A stretch of DNA of 64,000 nt from Escherichia coli (GCF_024223415.1 NZ_CP100501.1), one strand, 5' to 3'. Positions 2,032 through 27,235 are shown, counted from the stretch's first letter. The notes: generated by a model not told the origin, from the sequence alone. Numbers and translations: made by a program.

Positions 2032-2495
2032 ACCAGTGGAGGTATGCTTGAGGAGCAGGGACATGCCGGTCATGATCGTTTCGTTCCAGGGGTGGTCTGG
2101 AGATCATGCGGCGTGTCCTCTGCACTCGCCGGAATAAGGACGTCGCCGCCGGCTCCGCTTTTACCCGGCCATGCGGGGCATGGCCTTGTGGGTTTTCAGC
2201 TCTGTGGCCTCAGCGTCGTGTGCGGGCTGTGCCGTGCCTCCATCGTAGCCGGGCTTCTGCGGGCGGGATGCAAGGTAAGATGAACCGCTGCGGTCACCCG
2301 GTCCCTCCTTCCCGTCTGCCGTGATTTTCCGGTCGTTCACCCGCTCAGATTTCGCGGTCTCACCCTCCAACTCCCGTCAGCCGTGCGCGTCGGGCTGCGG
2401 CTTTCCTTGCGCCCTTGCATCCCTGCAGGCCCGGCAAAGATGGAGGCACGGCACCGCCCGGTGTCGCAGAACATGTGACTATGGAGGATTCGGGA

Positions 2496-2996
2496 ATGTC
2501 TGTTGTTGCACCTGCTGTATACGTTGGAACCTGGCACAAATATAACTGCGGAAGCATCGCCGGCCGCTGGTTTGACCTGACCACGTTTGATGATGAACGC
2601 GATTTTTTCGCCGCCTGCCGTGCCCTTCACCAGGATGAAACCGATCCGGAACTGATGTTTCAGGATTATGAGGGTTTCCCGGGGAATATGGCCTCTGAAT
2701 GTCATATCAACTGGGCCTGGGTTGAAGGCTTCCGCCGGGCACGGGATGAAGGCTGCGAAGAGGCTTATCGTCTCTGGGTGGATGATACCGGTGAGACGGA
2801 TTTTGACAGCTTCCGCGATGCCTGGTGGGGCGAGGCTGACAGTGAGGAGGCTTTTGCGGTTGAGTTCGTCAGTGATACCGGCCTGCTGGCTGACGTGCCG
2901 GAGACGGTGGCGCTCTATTTTGACTATGAGGCGTATGCGCGGGATTTATTCCTGGACTCCTTCACCTTTATTGACGGTCATGTGTTCCGTCGGTGA
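2496..2996 (+). CDS. ardA: ArdA antirestriction protein (DNA mimic, anti type I R-M)
   Basis: 166 aa, MSVVAPAVYVGTWHKYNCGSIAGRWFDLTTFDDERDFFAACRALHQDE; acidic C-terminal half typical of ArdA; preceded by ~460 bp of GC-rich untranslated leader. Confidence 0.9.
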   Translation: MSVVAPAVYVGTWHKYNCGSIAGRWFDLTTFDDERDFFAACRALHQDETDPELMFQDYEGFPGNMASECHINWAWVEGFRRARDEGCEEAYRLWVDDTGETDFDSFRDAWWGEADSEEAFAVEFVSDTGLLADVPETVALYFDYEAYARDLFLDSFTFIDGHVFRR

Positions 2997-3348
2997 TTTA
3001 CTCCCCCGCTCCGGCGGGGGTATGGCCTGCCGGGCCGCCGGAAAACCCTGGCAGGCTTACGCCTGCCTGAAATACAGGAGGGCCGCGCCTGCGGCGCTGC
3101 CCTTCCTGCCCGTCATGGTGTGAGGCATTTTTCTGTTTTGTCGTTTCTGTTGTTCTGATGCCCGGAGGCGGGGACACCCTTCGGCTCCCGGCTGCCTGGC
3201 GGCATCCGGTCGTCGGCCCGACTCCGACAGGCAGCTGCTGGCGCACCCGCCAGTCTCCGCCGAACCCGCTGGCGCGGTTTCGGGCTGCCGCTACGGTCCG
3301 ATGTCTGAAAAACCAGGCCTGCAGCGACCGTTCCGGTCGCGCCGCCCC

Positions 3349-3675
3349 TGTCGCGCCGGAAACGGCGCTCCCTGCACACCTGACGGTGTGTAAGGCCACT
3401 GCGCCTGATGGCGCAGTCAACCCTTCCGCCGCCACCCCTGCGGCCTGTTTCCCGCTGTGGACTTTCCGGGGGCTGAAGCGGCCACAACACGGGGCAGCCG
3501 TCCAGGGGAGAGATGTACCAGCCACAAAACTTTTTGCCGCAGGCGTCAAAAACTTTTGCGTCTGCCCCCGGACAACTGCCCCGTGCCGTGGCAGTCGCTG
3601 CCCCATCGGAAAGGTCCACTGCGGGGAGAAACCCCGAAGAAGTGGACGGCAGAAGGGGCTTTCGCCCCTCCGGGG
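3349..3675 (+). promoter_or_regulatory. Frpo/ssi-like single-strand promoter repeat, copy A
   Basis: About 330 bp GC-rich non-coding segment, near-identical to 6214-6543 (more than 80 bp identical around ccaggggagagatgtaccagccacaaaactttttgccgcaggcgtcaaaaacttttgcgtctgcccccggacaactgccccgtg); ends about 50 bp before the start codon at 3725. Confidence 0.55.
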
Positions 3676-3724
3676 GAGCAACCGGTCGGCCCGGCGACCT
3701 GATTCAGCAGAAGGAGACGTTTTC

Positions 3725-4159
3725 ATGACAGTCAGCAGCACGATTTCCGTTTTTTGCCGAGACGGGGTGTTCCGTACCGTTTACTGCCACCTGCACGGTG
3801 AGCCGACCTGGAACGGTCGCATCCTGCATACCCACTATGCCACCGGTCAGCTGGCCGAAGCCCTGGTTGAACACGGAGATATCCGTTGCCTCGGTCCCCG
3901 TTGCGACAAACCCGCCGGGCATACGCTTCAGAACCCGGTGGACGGTGTGACGGCTTATTACGGACGTGACAGTGGTTTCCGGATGGACAGTGAGGCGCGT
4001 GAGTACCGTTCTTTCAGGGAGGCTATTGCCACTGAAAGCACTGAAGAGGTGCGCTTCCATTATGTGTTCATCGACGGCTACTGGAAGGTGATGTACCGCA
4101 CGCCGGAAGGCTGGAAGATGAAAGCGCTCGCGCTGGCACTGCGTCGCTGTCCGGAATGA
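3725..4159 (+). CDS. hypothetical protein (144 aa), first gene downstream of promoter repeat A
   Basis: ATG at 3725 with GGAGACG SD-like sequence; MTVSSTISVFCRDGVFRTVYCHLHGEPTWNG; no recognised domain. Confidence 0.6.
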   Translation: MTVSSTISVFCRDGVFRTVYCHLHGEPTWNGRILHTHYATGQLAEALVEHGDIRCLGPRCDKPAGHTLQNPVDGVTAYYGRDSGFRMDSEAREYRSFREAIATESTEEVRFHYVFIDGYWKVMYRTPEGWKMKALALALRRCPE

Positions 4160-4250
4160 AAAAAAGCAGGGCGATAAACCCTGCCTCTCTCCGCCGCTGC
4201 TTCCCGGCCAGGAAGAGCGGCAGTCATCAACAACATAAGGAGAAATATTT

Positions 4251-4517
4251 GTGAGACCATCAATTATCTTCGCAACCGCCGAGTATGTAAAGCGTCTGCG
4301 TGAAGAGTGCCTGCGGGAGAATAAACCCCTGCACCGCCATACCCGCTTCAGACGTCAGGAGCTGGCACAGGATGAGATTAACCCGGACGTCCTGGCGATG
4401 AGCGGTCATATCGCCAGACGCTGCAGTGAGCAGAAGCGGGTGCGTATCCCCGCCATGAAAGTCAGCGAATGGGGCCACCTGCTCCGCGCGCTTGAAATTG
4501 AACGGGTCTGTCACTGA
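4251..4517 (+). CDS. hypothetical protein (88 aa, GTG start)
   Basis: AAGGAG SD 8 nt before GTG; lies between the 144-aa gene and rpn. Confidence 0.45.
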   Translation: MRPSIIFATAEYVKRLREECLRENKPLHRHTRFRRQELAQDEINPDVLAMSGHIARRCSEQKRVRIPAMKVSEWGHLLRALEIERVCH

Positions 4518-4581
4518 TTAACCCTTGCCGTCTGCCTGTGCAGGCGGCAGGATACGTTCAGACATCTCACCAGGAGGAACC

Positions 4582-5460
4582 GTGAGTAAGAAGAAAAACA
4601 CCACAACGCCCACGCCGCATGATGCCGCGTTCCGGTCGTTCCTGGCGAATCCCGACGTTGCCAGGGATTTTCTGGAGTTGCATCTTCCTGCGGAGTACCG
4701 GCAGTTGTGCGACCTGTCCACCCTGAAGCTGGAACCCGCCACCTTTGTTGAGCCGGACCTGCATCAGTACGCCAGCGATATCCTCTGGAGTGTGAAAACC
4801 ACCGGGGGTGAAGACGGCTATGTTTATACGCTCATCGAGCACCAGAGCACCGAAAATCTGTACATGCCTTTTCGCATGTTACGTTACAGTGTGGCGGCGA
4901 TGCAGAGACATCTGGAGCAGCACAAAACGTTGCCACTGGTCATTCCGGTGCTGTTCTATCACGGTGAGCGCAGCCCGTACCCGTACAGCATGAACTGGCT
5001 GGACTGTTTTGAGAATCCGGCACTTGCGGCTAAAATATACACAAAGCCGTTTCCGCTGGTTGATATCACTGTCGTTGATGACAATGAAATCATGAACCAT
5101 CGCCGGATGGCCGCACTGACGCTGCTGATGAAGCATATCCGCCATCGTGACATGATGGAGCTGCTGGACAAACTCCCGCAGGTCATGGTGGAAATTTCAG
5201 ACGAGCAGGTGCGTGTTCTGATTCATTACATCGTTAACGCAGGGGACACTGTATCACCGGAATTTATGCGGGCGCTGGCCGAGCGCCTGCCGCAGCATGA
5301 GGATAAACTGATGACAATCGCAGAACGTCTTGAGCAGAAAGGTGCGCTTGAAAAAGCCCTGGCCATTGCGCGTCAGCTTCAGAAAATGGGGATGACACCT
5401 GAGCAGATTAAGCAGGCCACCGGACTTTCCGAAGCTGAACTGAAAAAAGTCATTCACTGA
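4582..5460 (+). CDS. rpn: Rpn family recombination-promoting nuclease (YhgA-like PD-(D/E)XK)
   Basis: AGGAGG SD then GTG; HDAAFRSFLANPDVARDFLELHLPAEYRQLCDLSTLKLE and FYHGERSPYPYS motifs as in E. coli RpnA-E; C-terminal tail MTIAERLEQKG...TGLSEAELKK. Confidence 0.8.
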   Translation: MSKKKNTTTPTPHDAAFRSFLANPDVARDFLELHLPAEYRQLCDLSTLKLEPATFVEPDLHQYASDILWSVKTTGGEDGYVYTLIEHQSTENLYMPFRMLRYSVAAMQRHLEQHKTLPLVIPVLFYHGERSPYPYSMNWLDCFENPALAAKIYTKPFPLVDITVVDDNEIMNHRRMAALTLLMKHIRHRDMMELLDKLPQVMVEISDEQVRVLIHYIVNAGDTVSPEFMRALAERLPQHEDKLMTIAERLEQKGALEKALAIARQLQKMGMTPEQIKQATGLSEAELKKVIH

Positions 5461-5474
5461 TGAGAGCATCACAG

Positions 5475-5498
5475 CCCGGCAAAATGCCGGGCTTTTTG
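5475..5498 (+). terminator. rho-independent terminator-like hairpin after rpn
   Basis: cccggcaaaatgccggg followed by cttttt. Confidence 0.45.
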
Positions 5499-5521
5499 CC
5501 AGCAGGAGCAGAGCAAACAGC

Positions 5522-5728
5522 ATGACGATTGCAGAACGTCTTATACAGAAAGGTTTCGACGAGGGTTTTAAAGAAGGTTTTAAAGAAGGTTTTAAACAAG
5601 GAGCTCTTGAAGTGGCGCGGGAAATAGCCTGCCGGCTTCGGGATATAGGCTGGTCGCCGGAACGGATTCAGGAGGTCACGGGACTTTCCGGTGAAGAACT
5701 GAAAAAGCTGTTTCCTGATGAGCAGTAG
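5522..5728 (+). CDS. stand-alone small protein resembling the Rpn C-terminal domain (RpnS-like), 68 aa
   Basis: MTIAERLIQKG...ALEVAREIACRL...TGLSGEELKK aligns with the last ~49 aa of the upstream Rpn protein; contains three 12-bp tandem repeats encoding EGFK (5561-5596). Confidence 0.55.
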   Translation: MTIAERLIQKGFDEGFKEGFKEGFKQGALEVAREIACRLRDIGWSPERIQEVTGLSGEELKKLFPDEQ

Positions 5729-5758
5729 CCTGGCATTCAGCCAGGCTGTGAATCACGC

Positions 5759-6010
5759 TCACACATCCTCTGCCGTTTCCCCCAGTTCATTTTCCAGTCG
5801 CCTGATGATATCTGCCTTACGCATCCCCTGCATGTGAGGCAGCAGGTCACGGACTGAAAGTGCCTGGGTGGTCCTCCAGACGGTGACGTCCACCTGTTCC
5901 GCATTTTCCCAGGCGTGCCATGTTCTCTGCGTCACGCCAAATTCTCTGGCCGCTTTTTCGCGTGACCAGAGCATGCTTTTTCGCCAGATTCGCAGTTCCC
6001 ATCCGGTCAT
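5759..6010 (-). CDS. small helix-turn-helix DNA-binding protein (83 aa)
   Basis: AREFGVTQRTWHAWE HTH-like motif; divergent from promoter repeat B; palindromic sites in its upstream region. Confidence 0.55.
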   Translation of the reverse strand: MTGWELRIWRKSMLWSREKAAREFGVTQRTWHAWENAEQVDVTVWRTTQALSVRDLLPHMQGMRKADIIRRLENELGETAEDV

Positions 6011-6025
6011 AAAACACCTTTGAAA

Positions 6026-6111
6026 AAGTGAAAAAACTTCACTTTATTTTATCATCACAATTGCCAAATCAGCGCGATAAATAAGTGTAAAAAAGTGAAG
6101 AAATTTCACTT
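6026..6111. promoter_or_regulatory. two palindromic operator-like sites, AAGTGAA-N5-TTCACTT
   Basis: aagtgaaaaaacttcactt at 6026-6044 and aagtgaagaaatttcactt at 6093-6111, in the intergenic region between the HTH gene and promoter repeat B. Confidence 0.4.
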
Positions 6112-6213
6112 TTTTTGGTTGTAAATGTCGTGCGGTTTTCTCTGTTTTCACCTGTGCGGGAGTGGTGTGCCAGTGACCACCACATGCCATTGTTGTGCCG
6201 TCGTTTTTCTTCA

Positions 6214-6543
6214 GTCGCGCCGGATGCGGCGCTCCCTGCACACCTTACGGTGTGTAAGGCCACTGCGCCTGATGGCGCAGCTGCCTCTGCCTGTCTGCCG
6301 CCGCACTGCGGCCTGTTCTCCGCAGACGGACTTTCCGGGGGTACATACACGACCACATCCCGTTTCAGTCGTCCAGGGGAGAGATGTACCAGCCACAAAA
6401 CTTTTTGCCGCAGGCGTCAAAAACTTTTGCGTCTGCCCCCGGACAACTGCCCCGTGACGTGGTGAGCGTCCCCCGTCGGAAAGGTCCACTGCGGGGAAAT
6501 CCCCGAAGACCCGGACGGCAGAAGGAGCTTCGCTCCTCCGGGA
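6214..6543 (+). promoter_or_regulatory. Frpo/ssi-like single-strand promoter repeat, copy B
   Basis: Near-identical to 3349-3675; ends about 45 bp before the start codon at 6587. Confidence 0.55.
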
Positions 6544-6586: not shown

Positions 6587-7438
6587 GTGATGAATCAGAC
6601 TTTACCCACTGCTGACCTGAATACTGCCGGCACGACAGATGTTATTCCGTCTGTGGCTATCGACCGCATCATCGCGCAGCGTAACGAAGGTATTGCACTG
6701 TTCATGCAGGCGATGGAATGCCTGGCGACAGCGCGCAGGATTCTGCTCGATGCTTCCGGTGACATTTTTCTCTACGGGTTTGAAGACTGCGTGACTGACT
6801 CCGTTCGATGCATGGATAAACCGGAAGAAGCGAAAAGGAATATCACCCGTCTTGCCGACCGGAAAATCTGGGACCGCCTGATGACAGATACGGGCATGTA
6901 CACCTTCATGAGTTCATGCCAGCGTGATGAGTGGAACAGCCAGCTGATGAGCGACACCTGTCCTGAAATCACCCTGGACAATGTACTGGCAACATTCCGC
7001 CATCTTAATGCCAGCAAGATGCAGACATTTGAACAGGGACTGATTGATGTCTACCGGAAATTGTCATGGGATTACAGAACCAATAATCCCTGCCGTCTGG
7101 GCAAGAAAATCATTATTGAAAACCTGCTGTACCGCTGGAGTAACGGGCGTGTGACGCTGGACTGCAGCAGACGGGAGGCACTGGATGACCTGGTACGTCC
7201 GTTTTATCTGCTGGAGGGGCGCAACGTTCCTGACTTCAGGAACAGCATCGGGGCGCAGTATGGTGAATTTCTCAGGAACGGCGACAATGTCGGTAAGTTG
7301 TTAGAAGGGGAATATTTTACGGTGCGTGGCTACCAGAAAGGGACCGTACACATTGTCTTTAAGCGTTCTGACCTTGTTGAAAAACTGAATGATATTATTG
7401 CACGGCATTATCCTGGTGCATTGCCGCCACGAGTCTGA
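6587..7438 (+). CDS. hypothetical protein (283 aa), first gene downstream of promoter repeat B
   Basis: GGAGACA SD-like then ATGATG; no catalytic motif recognised; followed by a hairpin terminator. Confidence 0.6.
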   Translation: MMNQTLPTADLNTAGTTDVIPSVAIDRIIAQRNEGIALFMQAMECLATARRILLDASGDIFLYGFEDCVTDSVRCMDKPEEAKRNITRLADRKIWDRLMTDTGMYTFMSSCQRDEWNSQLMSDTCPEITLDNVLATFRHLNASKMQTFEQGLIDVYRKLSWDYRTNNPCRLGKKIIIENLLYRWSNGRVTLDCSRREALDDLVRPFYLLEGRNVPDFRNSIGAQYGEFLRNGDNVGKLLEGEYFTVRGYQKGTVHIVFKRSDLVEKLNDIIARHYPGALPPRV

Positions 7439-7523: not shown

Positions 7524-7865
7524 TCAATTGTTGTTCATATCGATGCCATCTTTCCTGCCTGAATCTGTCTTTTTAGGTGCTGTTTTAGAGGAAGAACGGC
7601 GGGATGTTTTTTTCGATTCTGCTTCCCGAATAATGTCACGAAGTGCCTTCTCTCCTACTTCATACCCTGCATTTTTGAGCGTGTCACGAATATCTGCCAG
7701 TGTATAACCCTTTGTCCTTACCAGGACAATAATGTCATCACGAATGGCATCAAGAAAATCACGCAATGTTTTCCGTTGAGCGGTGAGATCTGGCAATTCC
7801 GATAAAGCAGCTTTTGCCAGCTGGATGTCATCATCTGAGTAAAATTTTTTAGAAGCCATTGGCAC
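7524..7865 (-). CDS. hypothetical oriT-proximal protein (about 111 aa) with basic C-terminus
   Basis: MASKKFYSDDDIQLAKAALSELPDL...; lysine/serine-rich C-terminal tail; transcribed away from oriT. Confidence 0.5.
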   Translation of the reverse strand: MPMASKKFYSDDDIQLAKAALSELPDLTAQRKTLRDFLDAIRDDIIVLVRTKGYTLADIRDTLKNAGYEVGEKALRDIIREAESKKTSRRSSSKTAPKKTDSGRKDGIDMNNN

Positions 7866-7989: not shown

Positions 7990-8090
7990 GAAAAACGGGA
8001 CAGGATGTGTAATCGTATAACCGCGCACGCACGGCTATACGATTACCACCTGGTCAGGGCTTAGCCCCGACACCCCGGTAAGGAGCAGAC
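7990..8090. other. origin of transfer (oriT) region
   Basis: Intergenic region immediately upstream of nikA with 11-bp inverted repeat gtaatcgtata (8009-8019) / tatacgattac (8036-8046); nick position not determinable by eye. Confidence 0.55.
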
Positions 8091-23666: not shown

Positions 23667-23976
23667 GGGGATTCCTCCATAGATGAATGGATAAATTTCG
23701 GGATTAAGTCGGGTGGCATGAATGCGAATCAGCGCCGGTAATAACCGGACAGGAATGAATTCAACAGGACATTTTTACAGAGAAGAGCGAACGGCAGAAG
23801 GTGGTGGGAGACAGGTACAAAAAAACCGACTGGTGAGGCCGGTTTTTTTGCGATTCCGGGGTGGAGTTGGTGGCTCTGACCGGAGGAAGTCTCTTTTCAG
23901 CTAACAATGAGAGAGCTGTTGTGACAGGCAATGTAAGAGTAAGCAGCAGTGATTTCCTCCATTGACGGAGAAACGG

Positions 23977-26687: not shown

Positions 26688-26941
26688 CGGTGGGGTACAA
26701 ACGCAGAAATTTTGTTGTCATTACATCATCAGTTTTAGCCTGCAGAGACGCTGAAAAATCAGCGTTTTCAGACCCTGTTCAGGTTAGTGAATATTCTTGC
26801 CTGGCCTTTCGGCAATATCAATCCCCTGATGTGTGCACACGTAGTCACTTTCCGGCTTTATTTCTGTCCCTGACACAAAATACGTGGTGGCATGAAAAGG
26901 ATTGTGGCGGACAGGAAAACGATTAGAATAGCGGCGGGCGC

Positions 26942-27235
26942 TTGAGGCTGTATGCCGAAAGCGTTTTGTGGACGGCATGTAGCAGAAAGCCCCAGGCGAT
27001 TTTTTTATCAATCAACCCAGGGCCCACTGTAATGCCTAGACAACATTATAGTAGCCCGATGACGGCCGAAAGGCAATGGAGGGGCTGCGATGCCACAACG
27101 AACGTTTTTAATGATGTTAATCGTCGTCTGTGTGACGATACTGTGTTTTGTCTGGATGGTGAGGGATTCGCTTTGCGGATTTCGTATCGAGCAGGGAAAT
27201 ACGGTGCTTGTGGCAACGTTAGCCTACGAAGTTAA
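26942..27235 (+). CDS. pndC: PndC-like overlapping reading frame (mok analogue) of the pnd locus
   Basis: ORF overlapping pndA in another frame, as in hok/mok architecture. Confidence 0.4.
   Translation: MRLYAESVLWTACSRKPQAIFLSINPGPTVMPRQHYSSPMTAERQWRGCDATTNVFNDVNRRLCDDTVFCLDGEGFALRISYRAGKYGACGNVSLRS

What the first reader, a model, noticed from the sequence alone, without database searches (positions are those of the whole stretch)
3349..6543. Two ~330-bp near-identical GC-rich repeats resembling Frpo/ssi single-strand promoters, each immediately upstream of an unknown gene
3349-3675 and 6214-6543 share long identical stretches and contain no credible coding frame. Leading-region genes here are all on the + strand and point toward oriT, the orientation required for transcription from the transferred single strand. 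F and ColIb-P9 leading regions are known to carry such repeated ssDNA promoters in front of ssb, psiB and ardA; here they sit in front of two uncharacterised genes instead.
Basis: partly seen in the sequence, partly recalled or inferred. Interest (0 to 1): 0.65.

Follow-up and report, generated by a model that had tools for sequence, protein, structure and literature searches.

The report
Known ssi1/ssi2 single-strand promoters
The two repeats are the already-described ssi1 and ssi2 single-stranded-DNA promoters of ColIb-P9-type (I-complex) conjugative plasmids, sitting exactly where they sit in the reference plasmid, so the finding is correct but ordinary.

Summary
The repeats are real: window 3348-3672 and 6212-6540, 84-86% identical, with exact shared runs of 87, 34, 22 and 19 nt. 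They are not new. Repeat 2 is 99.4% identical to ColIb-P9 ssi1. It lies 1460-1788 nt from the oriT nick, against 1459-1787 in ColIb-P9. Repeat 1 is the ssi2 orthologue (89.6%). Both are "class 1" Frpo/ssi single-stranded-DNA promoters. The transferred (minus) strand folds into a long imperfect hairpin (z = -7.9 and -11.2). Covariation across 15 IncI, IncF, Serratia, Salmonella and metagenomic relatives supports the fold: 93.5% of cells paired against 43-52% in slid controls, and 13 compensatory pairs. A strand test favours the transferred strand: G.T versus A.C mispairs are 46 to 4, and its folds are 16-18 kcal/mol more stable than those of the + strand. Published 5' RACE and RNA-seq on the IncI1 plasmid pESBL show ssi1-3 firing early in recipients. 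ssi3 precedes ssb and lies outside the window; ardA has its own class-2 hairpin. I could not assign the -35/-10 boxes to specific bases. One minor extra: this ssi2 copy is a mosaic carrying the ssi1 promoter core.

The parts
6212..6540 (-). ssi1: class-1 Frpo/ssi single-stranded-DNA promoter; the functional form is the transferred minus strand
   Evidence: 99.4% identical over 329 nt to ColIb-P9 ssi1, AJ238399.1:1459-1787. It lies 1460-1788 nt from nic. The T-strand DNA fold is -109.8 kcal/mol, z = -7.87.
6339..6476 (-). Conserved core hairpin of ssi1: GTCCGGGGG/CCCCTGGAC box with a G.T mismatch, a 10-nt bulge on the 3' arm, an A/T-rich upper stem and a 4-nt loop
   Evidence: Covariance-model hit of 122.4 bits on the minus strand against 33.6 bits for the mirror image on the + strand. 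Hairpin layout. Covariation.
3348..3672 (-). ssi2: class-1 Frpo/ssi single-stranded-DNA promoter, in a mosaic variant
   Evidence: 89.3-89.6% identical to ColIb-P9 ssi2, AJ238399.1:4353-4678, and 100% identical to the copy in IncK2/Z plasmid NZ_CP016548.1. The T-strand DNA fold is -132.6 kcal/mol, z = -11.18.
3468..3605 (-). Conserved core hairpin of ssi2
   Evidence: Covariance-model hit of 127.6 bits on the minus strand against 52.8 bits on the + strand.
3499..3585 (.). 87-nt tract inside ssi2 that is identical to ssi1 (6370-6456): a promoter core overwritten by the ssi1 type
   Evidence: Longest identical run. In a 5-way alignment, all informative sites in the core are ssi1-type, while the flanks are ssi2-type.
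3725..4159 (+). First gene of the ssi2 transcription unit: a 144-aa protein of unknown function, labelled 'PndC' in databases
   Evidence: The ATG lies 52 nt after the repeat and has a GGAG ribosome-binding site. No Pfam or NCBIfam family matches. It matches phrog_1987, function unknown, at 1e-20. Database names are listed.
4251..5728 (+). Rest of the ssi2 unit: an 88-aa ORF, an Rpn-family nuclease (4525-5460), and a 68-aa ORF resembling the Rpn C-terminus (5522-5728)
   Evidence: NCBIfam TIGR01784 at 2.7e-49 for the nuclease and 9.4e-6 for the small ORF. Same-strand synteny in the related plasmids L001 and L002. That these genes form one operon with the first gene is inferred.
6587..7438 (+). 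Gene of the ssi1 transcription unit: a 283-aa DUF4942 protein of unknown function
   Evidence: Pfam PF13708 at 2.4e-52. PHROG 38825 at 5.7e-27. It also matches the N-terminal half of the phage family phrog_6263, 'DNA methyltransferase'. No solved relative by sequence.
8000..8046 (-). oriT nick region: an 18-nt inverted repeat followed by CATCCTG|T on the minus strand; it defines the minus strand as the transferred strand
   Evidence: Reading this motif as the MOBP/R64-type nic site rests on my own knowledge. It is corroborated by the AJ238399 numbering, which puts that record's base 1 at about window 7998, and by nikA-nikB lying immediately beyond it.
2135..2487 (-). Context only: a separate class-2 ssDNA-promoter hairpin upstream of ardA; it is not a copy of the two repeats
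   Evidence: Inverted repeat with arms 2223-2254 and 2429-2460. T-strand fold z = -5.5. 79% identical to the published candidate 'Frpo' 4' and 89% to the klcA-upstream copy in L001. The class-1 covariance model does not hit it.

Best explanation
The two repeats are the ssi1 (6212-6540) and ssi2 (3348-3672) elements of an I-complex (ColIb-P9/R64/IncK-like) conjugative plasmid. They are class-1 Frpo-type single-stranded-DNA promoters. During conjugation the minus strand is nicked at about 8000/8001 and enters the recipient 5' end first, so ssi1 arrives after about 1.5 kb and ssi2 after about 4.3 kb. While still single-stranded, each element snaps back into a long imperfect hairpin of roughly 330 nt. 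Its conserved core has a GTCCGGGGG/CCCCTGGAC box containing a conserved G.T mismatch, an 8-10-nt bulge on the 3' arm only, an A/T-rich upper stem and a small loop. This core presents a duplex-like promoter to host sigma-70 RNA polymerase. Transcription uses the transferred strand as template and runs toward oriT into the downstream genes. For ssi1 that is the DUF4942 gene. For ssi2 it is the 144-aa ORF, an 88-aa ORF, the Rpn-family nuclease and a small Rpn-C-terminus-like ORF. Complementary-strand synthesis then abolishes the hairpin and switches the promoter off, giving a brief burst of expression. The transcripts may also prime complementary-strand synthesis. Shown here: identity to the reference elements, position, strand, hairpin, covariation and strand bias. 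Taken from the literature: promoter activity, single-strand specificity and in-vivo start sites. Inferred: operon extents and which bases contact the polymerase.
For: Identity: 99.4% to ColIb-P9 ssi1 and 89.6% to ssi2, using the reference sequences in Samuel et al. 2024, Supplementary file 4. The core matches F ssiD/Frpo at 72-74%. Synteny: related IncI-gamma/K1 and IncK2/Z plasmids have ssi3 before ssb, ssi2 before the 144-aa ORF and ssi1 before the DUF4942 gene. The distance from nic equals that of ColIb-P9 ssi1 to within 1 nt. Polarity: the inverted repeat plus CATCCTG|T lie on the minus strand, next to nikAB. Structure: T-strand DNA folds give z = -7.9 and -11.2, and none of 100 shuffles folds as well. 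The same architecture appears in 10 family members. Covariation on 15 sequences: 93.5% of cells paired against 43-52% with slid partners; 13 pairs with changes on both sides against 3-5; covariation score 0.289 against 0.03-0.07; 0 of 500 shuffles reach the observed values. Strand discrimination: G.T versus A.C mispairs are 46 to 4, and the T-strand MFE is 16-18 kcal/mol lower than the + strand MFE. The covariance model scores 122-128 bits on the minus strand against 34-53 bits on the + strand. No conventional duplex sigma-70 site lies within either repeat. Literature: ssi1-3 head three early operons (PMC10104558). In pESBL all six leading-region operons are induced up to about 500-fold at 15 min. 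The 5' RACE start sites were mapped for ssi1-3, and class-1 promoters were the strongest (PMC12672017). [quoted passage not shown]
Against: No canonical -35/-10 pair could be placed. The consensus scan finds none in either repeat on either strand. In a family-wide positional scan the best placement scores only 4.5 of 8.3. Promoter activity was not measured for this plasmid. The ssi2 copy is a mosaic whose stem is more fully paired than that of the reference element, and its activity has not been tested by anyone I could find.
Confidence: 0.93

Rival explanations
1. The elements are primarily priming signals (single-strand initiation sites) for complementary-strand DNA synthesis in the recipient, and expression of the downstream genes is incidental.
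For: The 'ssi' name and the in-vitro finding that Frpo transcripts stay hybridised and prime DNA polymerase are cited in PMC7690428, PMC7736820 and PMC12672017. The hairpin and strand bias fit priming as well as they fit transcription.
Against: Each copy sits 46-52 nt upstream of a gene with a ribosome-binding site on the correct strand. In pESBL and F the downstream genes are strongly and transiently induced, and in F that induction depends on the Frpo elements. Three dispersed copies that each head an operon fit promoters better than origins. The two roles are not exclusive, so this rival is more likely an added function than a replacement.
Confidence: 0.1
2. The conserved structure acts in the mRNA, as a 5'-UTR stem-loop that controls stability or translation, rather than in the transferred DNA strand.
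For: Any DNA hairpin is mirrored in the sense transcript. If the start site lies upstream of or within the hairpin, the mRNA would carry part of it. The covariance model also gives weak hits on the + strand.
Against: The strand test goes the wrong way for an RNA of + sense. The 46 G.T pairs on the T strand become A.C clashes in the mRNA, and only 4 cells go the other way. The + strand folds are 16-18 kcal/mol weaker, and covariance-model scores drop from 122-128 to 34-53 bits.
Confidence: 0.03
3. The repeats are recombination substrates, or ends of a mobile leading-region module, rather than expression signals.
For: PMC3817090 documents a hybrid R1/R3 repeat left where a 9.7-kb leading-region block is missing, and speculates that the block is mobile. 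The ssi2 copy here is itself a recombinant.
Against: Recombination between 330-bp direct repeats is an expected side effect and does not explain the conserved hairpin, the covariation or the strand bias. No transposase-end or IS similarity was found. BLAST hits are all to leading regions.
Confidence: 0.03
4. The repeats encode small proteins, as the hypothetical ORFs called across them in several database records would suggest.
For: ORFs of 54-124 aa span the repeats on both strands. Some records annotate them, for example L001 14458-14703 and L002 15650-16258.
Against: All 7 indels between the two copies shift the reading frame. The ORFs differ between copies. They match no PHROG family. High GC content (0.63-0.66) produces long open frames by chance. 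Substitutions follow base pairing.
Confidence: 0.01

Closest known systems
ColIb-P9 ssi1 and ssi2 (AJ238399.1:1459-1787 and 4353-4678; Bates et al. 1999, as listed in Samuel et al. 2024 Supplementary file 4)
   Same: Same elements. Identity is 99.4% (ssi1) and 89.6% (ssi2). Length is about 328 nt, the strand is the same, the distance from nic agrees to within 1 nt for ssi1, and the downstream genes are the same.
   Different: The central 87 nt of this ssi2 copy are of the ssi1 type. Private changes on both arms close internal loops, so the stem is more fully paired than in the reference (MFE -132.6 against -109.8 kcal/mol for the window's ssi1 copy).
pESBL (IncI1) class-1 ssDNA promoters ssi1-3 (PMC12672017)
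   Same: Described there as the ColIb-P9 ssi1-3 hairpins heading early-induced operons, with 5' RACE start sites and the highest transcription rates among three promoter classes.
   Different: I did not align the pESBL sequence itself. The link runs through ColIb-P9. The start-site coordinates are in a supplementary figure that I could not read.
F plasmid Frpo1 (ssiD) and Frpo2
   Same: Homologous core of about 115-135 nt (72-78% identity) with the same box, bulge, A/T-rich stem and loop architecture. [quoted passage not shown]
   Different: The outer arms are not alignable with the IncI type. The downstream genes differ (ygeA/B and ssb-psiB in F). In F there are two copies about 5 kb apart that are 92% identical.
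Class-2 ssDNA promoters upstream of ardA and klcA (PMC12672017; 'Frpo' 4' of Samuel et al. 2024)
   Same: They have the same leading-region context, the same T-strand hairpin logic, and the same burst of expression. One copy lies in this window at 2135-2487.
   Different: There is no sequence homology to the two repeats. This element, not ssi1 or ssi2, is the one in front of ardA.
Single-strand origins of rolling-circle plasmids (sso) and the minus-strand origin of filamentous phages (own knowledge; the sso comparison is also made in PMC7690428)
   Same: Folded single-stranded DNA recognised by host RNA polymerase as a promoter-like duplex.
   Different: Those elements make a primer only and do not drive protein-coding operons. 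There is no sequence relationship, and I did not test one here.

Membership tests
Class-1 Frpo/ssi single-stranded-DNA promoters (ColIb-P9 ssi1-3, F Frpo1/2) | Sequence homology to a reference ssi/Frpo element | tested here: met
   99.4% to ssi1, 89.6% to ssi2 and 80-82% to ssi3. The core is 72-74% identical to F ssiD. Covariance model: 122-128 bits.
Class-1 Frpo/ssi single-stranded-DNA promoters (ColIb-P9 ssi1-3, F Frpo1/2) | Located in the leading region, with the transferred strand as template for the downstream genes | tested here: met
   The nic motif and inverted repeat lie on the minus strand at 8000-8046, and the repeats lie 1.5 and 4.3 kb 3' of nic on that strand. The downstream genes are on the + strand. 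Reading the nic motif rests on my own knowledge, corroborated by the AJ238399 numbering.
Class-1 Frpo/ssi single-stranded-DNA promoters (ColIb-P9 ssi1-3, F Frpo1/2) | The transferred strand folds into a long, stable, imperfect stem-loop | tested here: met
   z = -7.9 and -11.2. A common architecture appears in 10 relatives. The T strand is 16-18 kcal/mol more stable than the + strand.
Class-1 Frpo/ssi single-stranded-DNA promoters (ColIb-P9 ssi1-3, F Frpo1/2) | The stem is maintained by selection (compensatory changes across relatives) | tested here: met
   13 of 29 pairs have changes on both sides. 93.5% of cells are paired against 43-52% with slid partners. 0 of 500 shuffles reach the observed values. 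G.T versus A.C mispairs are 46 to 4.
Class-1 Frpo/ssi single-stranded-DNA promoters (ColIb-P9 ssi1-3, F Frpo1/2) | -35 and -10 hexamers reconstituted in the stem | tested here: inconclusive
   No site meets the 9-of-12 criterion in either repeat on either strand. The best conserved placements are weak. They are TGGACN as a -35-like box; an apical nnGGCA followed after 17 nt by T(A/G/T)CAT(C/T) in the bulge; and TTGNGG followed after 17 nt by TGGACN.
Class-1 Frpo/ssi single-stranded-DNA promoters (ColIb-P9 ssi1-3, F Frpo1/2) | Promoter active in single-stranded form only, recognised by sigma-70 RNA polymerase, with a defined start site | not testable with these tools
   Reported for F Frpo and ColIb ssi3 in vitro and for pESBL ssi1-3 by 5' RACE, as cited. 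It has not been measured for this plasmid.
Class-1 Frpo/ssi single-stranded-DNA promoters (ColIb-P9 ssi1-3, F Frpo1/2) | Early, transient induction of the downstream genes in transconjugants | not testable with these tools
   Shown for pESBL (up to about 500-fold at 15 min, decaying by 60 min) and for F. It is inferred here from orthology.
Class-2 ssDNA promoters (ardA/klcA type) | Sequence similarity to the ardA- or klcA-upstream hairpin | tested here: not met
   The two repeats do not align with window 2040-2500 beyond chance. The class-1 model does not hit that region. The region itself matches class 2.
Insertion sequence, transposon end or protein-coding repeat | Similarity to an IS or a conserved reading frame | tested here: not met
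   All plasmid hits are leading-region intergenic DNA. The internal ORFs match no family. All indels shift the frame. No Rfam family lies at these positions.

The most novel reading that the evidence does not exclude
In this plasmid lineage the ssi2 promoter is a recombinant. Its core of at least 87 nt has been overwritten by the ssi1 sequence, by gene conversion between paralogous single-strand promoters. Clustered changes on both arms have closed internal loops and produced a much more perfect stem. If stem imperfections tune promoter strength or lifetime, as the title of Nasim et al. 2004 implies, this variant would fire differently from canonical ssi2 and would change the dose or timing of the Rpn-nuclease operon in new hosts. 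It would then be an example of concerted evolution and tuning among ssDNA promoters.
Probability: 0.3. Interest if true: 0.3.

Novelty: already known. Interest (0 to 1): 0.12.

Why it matters
Single-strand promoters let a conjugative plasmid express anti-defence and establishment genes within seconds of entry, before its complementary strand exists. They are central to current work on how resistance plasmids overcome host defences. This finding adds no new element, since both repeats are textbook ssi1 and ssi2. Its value is confirmatory. It independently shows covariation and a strand-specific pairing bias for the class-1 hairpin. It also points to two still-uncharacterised early genes, the DUF4942 protein and the 144-aa protein mislabelled 'PndC', which sit under the strongest class of early promoters and are reasonable candidates for anti-defence functions.

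Tried and rejected
(1) A third class-1 copy upstream of ardA. Rejected: the 2040-2500 segment does not align with the repeats and is missed by BLAST and by the covariance model. It is a class-2 element.

(2) Rfam. No family lies at either repeat.

(3) Coding potential of the ORFs inside the repeats. Rejected.

(4) Conventional duplex promoters inside the repeats. None were found.

(5) Base-level assignment of the -35/-10 boxes. I tried manual reading of both arms and a family-wide positional scan. No placement is convincing, so it stays unresolved. A promoter on the 5' arm of F Frpo1 (TTGAGA, 17 nt, CATACT, seen by eye) is not conserved in Frpo2 or the IncI elements and was dropped.

(6) Primary papers and supplements for box and start-site coordinates. 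Not held.

(7) ColIb-P9 record AB021078. Not in the collections.

(8) The idea that Pfam 'DUF1472' is a translation of the class-2 hairpin. The annotated CDS has no match in current Pfam-A, so nothing can be concluded.

(9) Function of the two downstream proteins. NCBIfam, Pfam, PADLOC, PHROGs and PDB sequence searches give only DUF4942 and unknown-function phage families. I ran no further search on this, because the answer would not change the verdict on the repeats.


Full report
OBSERVATION. Two direct repeats of about 327 nt are present at window 3348-3672 and 6212-6540. They are 83.7-86% identical overall and share exact runs of 87 nt (3499-3585 = 6370-6456), 34, 22 and 19 nt. "Near-identical" therefore describes the core rather than the whole element. 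A 50-nt core pattern occurs exactly twice in 64 kb, against none in 100 shuffles. GC content is 0.63-0.66. Open frames cross both repeats on both strands, and some database records annotate them. However, all seven indels between the copies shift the frame, and none of the ORFs matches a protein family. Each repeat ends 46-52 nt before a start codon with a GGAG-type ribosome-binding site.

CONTEXT AND POLARITY. The region matches thousands of enterobacterial conjugative plasmids. In the annotated relatives L001 (IncI-gamma/K1) and L002 (IncK2/Z) the gene order is ssb, parB-like, psiB, psiA, ardA, 144-aa ORF, Rpn-family gene, XRE gene, DUF4942 gene, then oriT and nikA-nikB. The window begins inside this leading region, at psiB. 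On the minus strand an 18-nt inverted repeat (8009-8046) is followed by CATCCTG|T at 8007-8000. From my own knowledge this is the MOBP/R64-type nick region. The minus strand is therefore the transferred strand, and lower coordinates enter the recipient first. This is corroborated independently: ssi1 lies 1460-1788 nt from that nick, and the ColIb-P9 reference places ssi1 at 1459-1787 of AJ238399.1.

IDENTITY. Supplementary file 4 of Samuel et al. 2024 (PMC11541004) lists the ColIb-P9 ssi1, ssi2 and ssi3 sequences and F ssiD. Read on the minus strand, repeat 2 is 99.4% identical to ssi1 over 329 nt. Repeat 1 is 89.6% identical to ssi2. Both match F ssiD/Frpo at 72-74% over the central 115-135 nt. 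L001 and L002 carry three copies at syntenic positions: ssi3 before ssb, ssi2, and ssi1. A covariance model built from 15 relatives finds exactly two sites in the 64-kb window, at 127.6 and 122.4 bits on the minus strand. It also recovers two sequences that were not used to build it, at 120.8 and 93.4 bits. ssi3 would lie just beyond the window's left edge.

STRUCTURE. Folded as DNA, the transferred strand forms a long imperfect hairpin: -109.8 kcal/mol with z = -7.87 for ssi1, and -132.6 kcal/mol with z = -11.18 for ssi2. Ten family members share one core architecture. It consists of a lower stem, a GTCCGGGGG/CCCCTGGAC box with a conserved G.T (or T.T) mismatch, an 8-10-nt bulge on the 3' arm only that contains a conserved CAT, an A/T-rich upper stem, and a small loop. 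I aligned 15 sequences from IncI, IncK, IncF, Serratia, Salmonella and metagenomic elements. On that alignment, 13 of 29 consensus pairs show compensatory double changes. Of all cells, 93.5% form pairs, against 43-52% when partners are slid by 1-3 columns. The covariation score is 0.289 against 0.03-0.07, and no shuffle out of 500 reaches the observed values. A DNA hairpin is mirrored on the complementary strand, so I added a test that discriminates between strands. In transferred-strand orientation there are 46 G.T cells against 4 A.C cells. The transferred-strand folds are 16-18 kcal/mol more stable than the plus-strand folds. The covariance model scores the plus strand at only 34-53 bits. 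The selected fold is therefore that of the transferred strand, not that of the mRNA.

MECHANISM. This section combines the literature with inference. Frpo-type elements fold in the incoming single strand so that host RNA polymerase recognises a duplex-like promoter. They are inactive once the complementary strand has been made. In the IncI1 plasmid pESBL, six leading-region operons are induced up to about 500-fold at 15 min. Three of the six upstream hairpins are ssi1-3 ("class 1"). The 5' RACE start sites were mapped for all six, and class 1 gave the highest transcription (PMC12672017). [quoted passage not shown] By orthology, ssi1 here should drive the DUF4942 gene (6587-7438). ssi2 should drive the 144-aa ORF (3725-4159) and probably 4251-5728, which includes an Rpn-family nuclease. 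No conventional duplex sigma-70 site lies in either repeat. The minus-strand genes 5759-6010 and 7524-7865 cannot be read from the transferred strand. I could not place the -35 and -10 boxes. The stringent scan finds none, and a family-wide positional scan yields only weak candidates, the best scoring 4.5 of 8.3.

ColIb-P9 has ssi1 and ssi2 in exactly these places. ssi3 is the copy that serves ssb-psiB-psiA. ardA is preceded by a different, class-2 hairpin, present here at 2135-2487. The statement that all leading-region genes are on the + strand is also incorrect for two genes.

EXTRA OBSERVATION. The ssi2 copy in this window is a mosaic. Its flanks carry only ssi2-diagnostic bases, whereas the central core carries only ssi1-diagnostic bases and is identical to the window's ssi1 for 87 nt. 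Clustered private changes on both arms close internal loops, which explains the lower folding energy. The same variant is 100% identical in an IncK2/Z plasmid, and about 100 plasmid records match it at 99% or better. Recombination between these repeats has been reported before (PMC3817090), so this is a minor variation and not a new phenomenon.

VERDICT. The feature is real and correctly recognised in kind, but it is already known. Interest is low.

Noticed in passing
window 3499-3585 (and the flanks 3586-3610 and 3468-3498): The ssi2 copy is a mosaic. Its promoter core is of the ssi1 type and identical to 6370-6456 over 87 nt, while its flanks are of the ssi2 type. Clustered private substitutions on both hairpin arms make the stem much more perfect than in ColIb-P9 ssi2. 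I did not resolve whether these arose by hairpin-templated correction or by recombination with another family member; the lower stem resembles the F type 'ACTGCCACGGC...GTTGTGGC'.
   Followed up: partly
window 2135-2487 (inverted repeat arms 2223-2254 and 2429-2460): A separate long T-strand hairpin lies upstream of ardA (z = -5.5). It is 79% identical to the candidate 'Frpo' 4' of Samuel et al. and 89% to the klcA-upstream copy in L001. This makes it the class-2 ssDNA promoter described in 2025, unrelated in sequence to ssi1 and ssi2.
   Followed up: partly
window 3725-4159: The 144-aa protein belongs to a cluster of more than 1,500 members that databases widely name 'post-segregation killing protein PndC'. 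It matches no Pfam or NCBIfam family, and the only hok/sok-type RNA in the window is about 23 kb away (26936-27092). The name looks like a propagated misannotation. The protein has phage homologues of unknown function (phrog_1987).
   Followed up: partly
window 4525-5460 and 5522-5728 (direct repeat 5311-5343 / 5522-5554): The ssi2 transcription unit carries an Rpn-family recombination-promoting nuclease gene. A free-standing 68-aa ORF follows it and resembles the Rpn C-terminus. A stand-alone Rpn C-terminal piece expressed early in recipients is curious; it might act as an antitoxin or decoy, but I did not test this.
   Followed up: no
window 5759-6010 (-) and 7524-7865 (-): Two leading-region genes lie on the minus strand: an XRE-type HTH protein and a 113-aa protein that some records annotate as 'MobC'. 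They cannot be transcribed from the transferred strand, so they should be expressed only after complementary-strand synthesis.
   Followed up: no
whole window (18 sites, including 8000-8007): The 8-mer YATCCTGY, the nic-core motif, occurs 18 times against 8.3 expected, and none of 100 shuffles reaches 18. The cause is unknown. It may be a codon or composition effect.
   Followed up: no
L001 13106-13576 and 6002-6574; L001 14458-14703; L002 15650-16258: Database records call protein-coding genes across the ssDNA-promoter hairpins. They are labelled 'DUF1472 domain-containing protein' on the class-2 elements and 'hypothetical protein' on ssi2. The DUF1472-labelled CDS has no match in the current Pfam-A, which suggests these are spurious gene calls on structured non-coding DNA.
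   Followed up: partly
window 12391-12477 (+), 18042-18158 (-), 23817-23904 (-), 26936-27092 (+): Rfam hits lie elsewhere in the window. Two are ALIL pseudoknots, the frameshift signals of IS3-family insertion sequences. One is an AgrB antisense RNA. One is a sok antitoxin RNA, which marks the real pnd/hok-type post-segregational killing locus.
   Followed up: no
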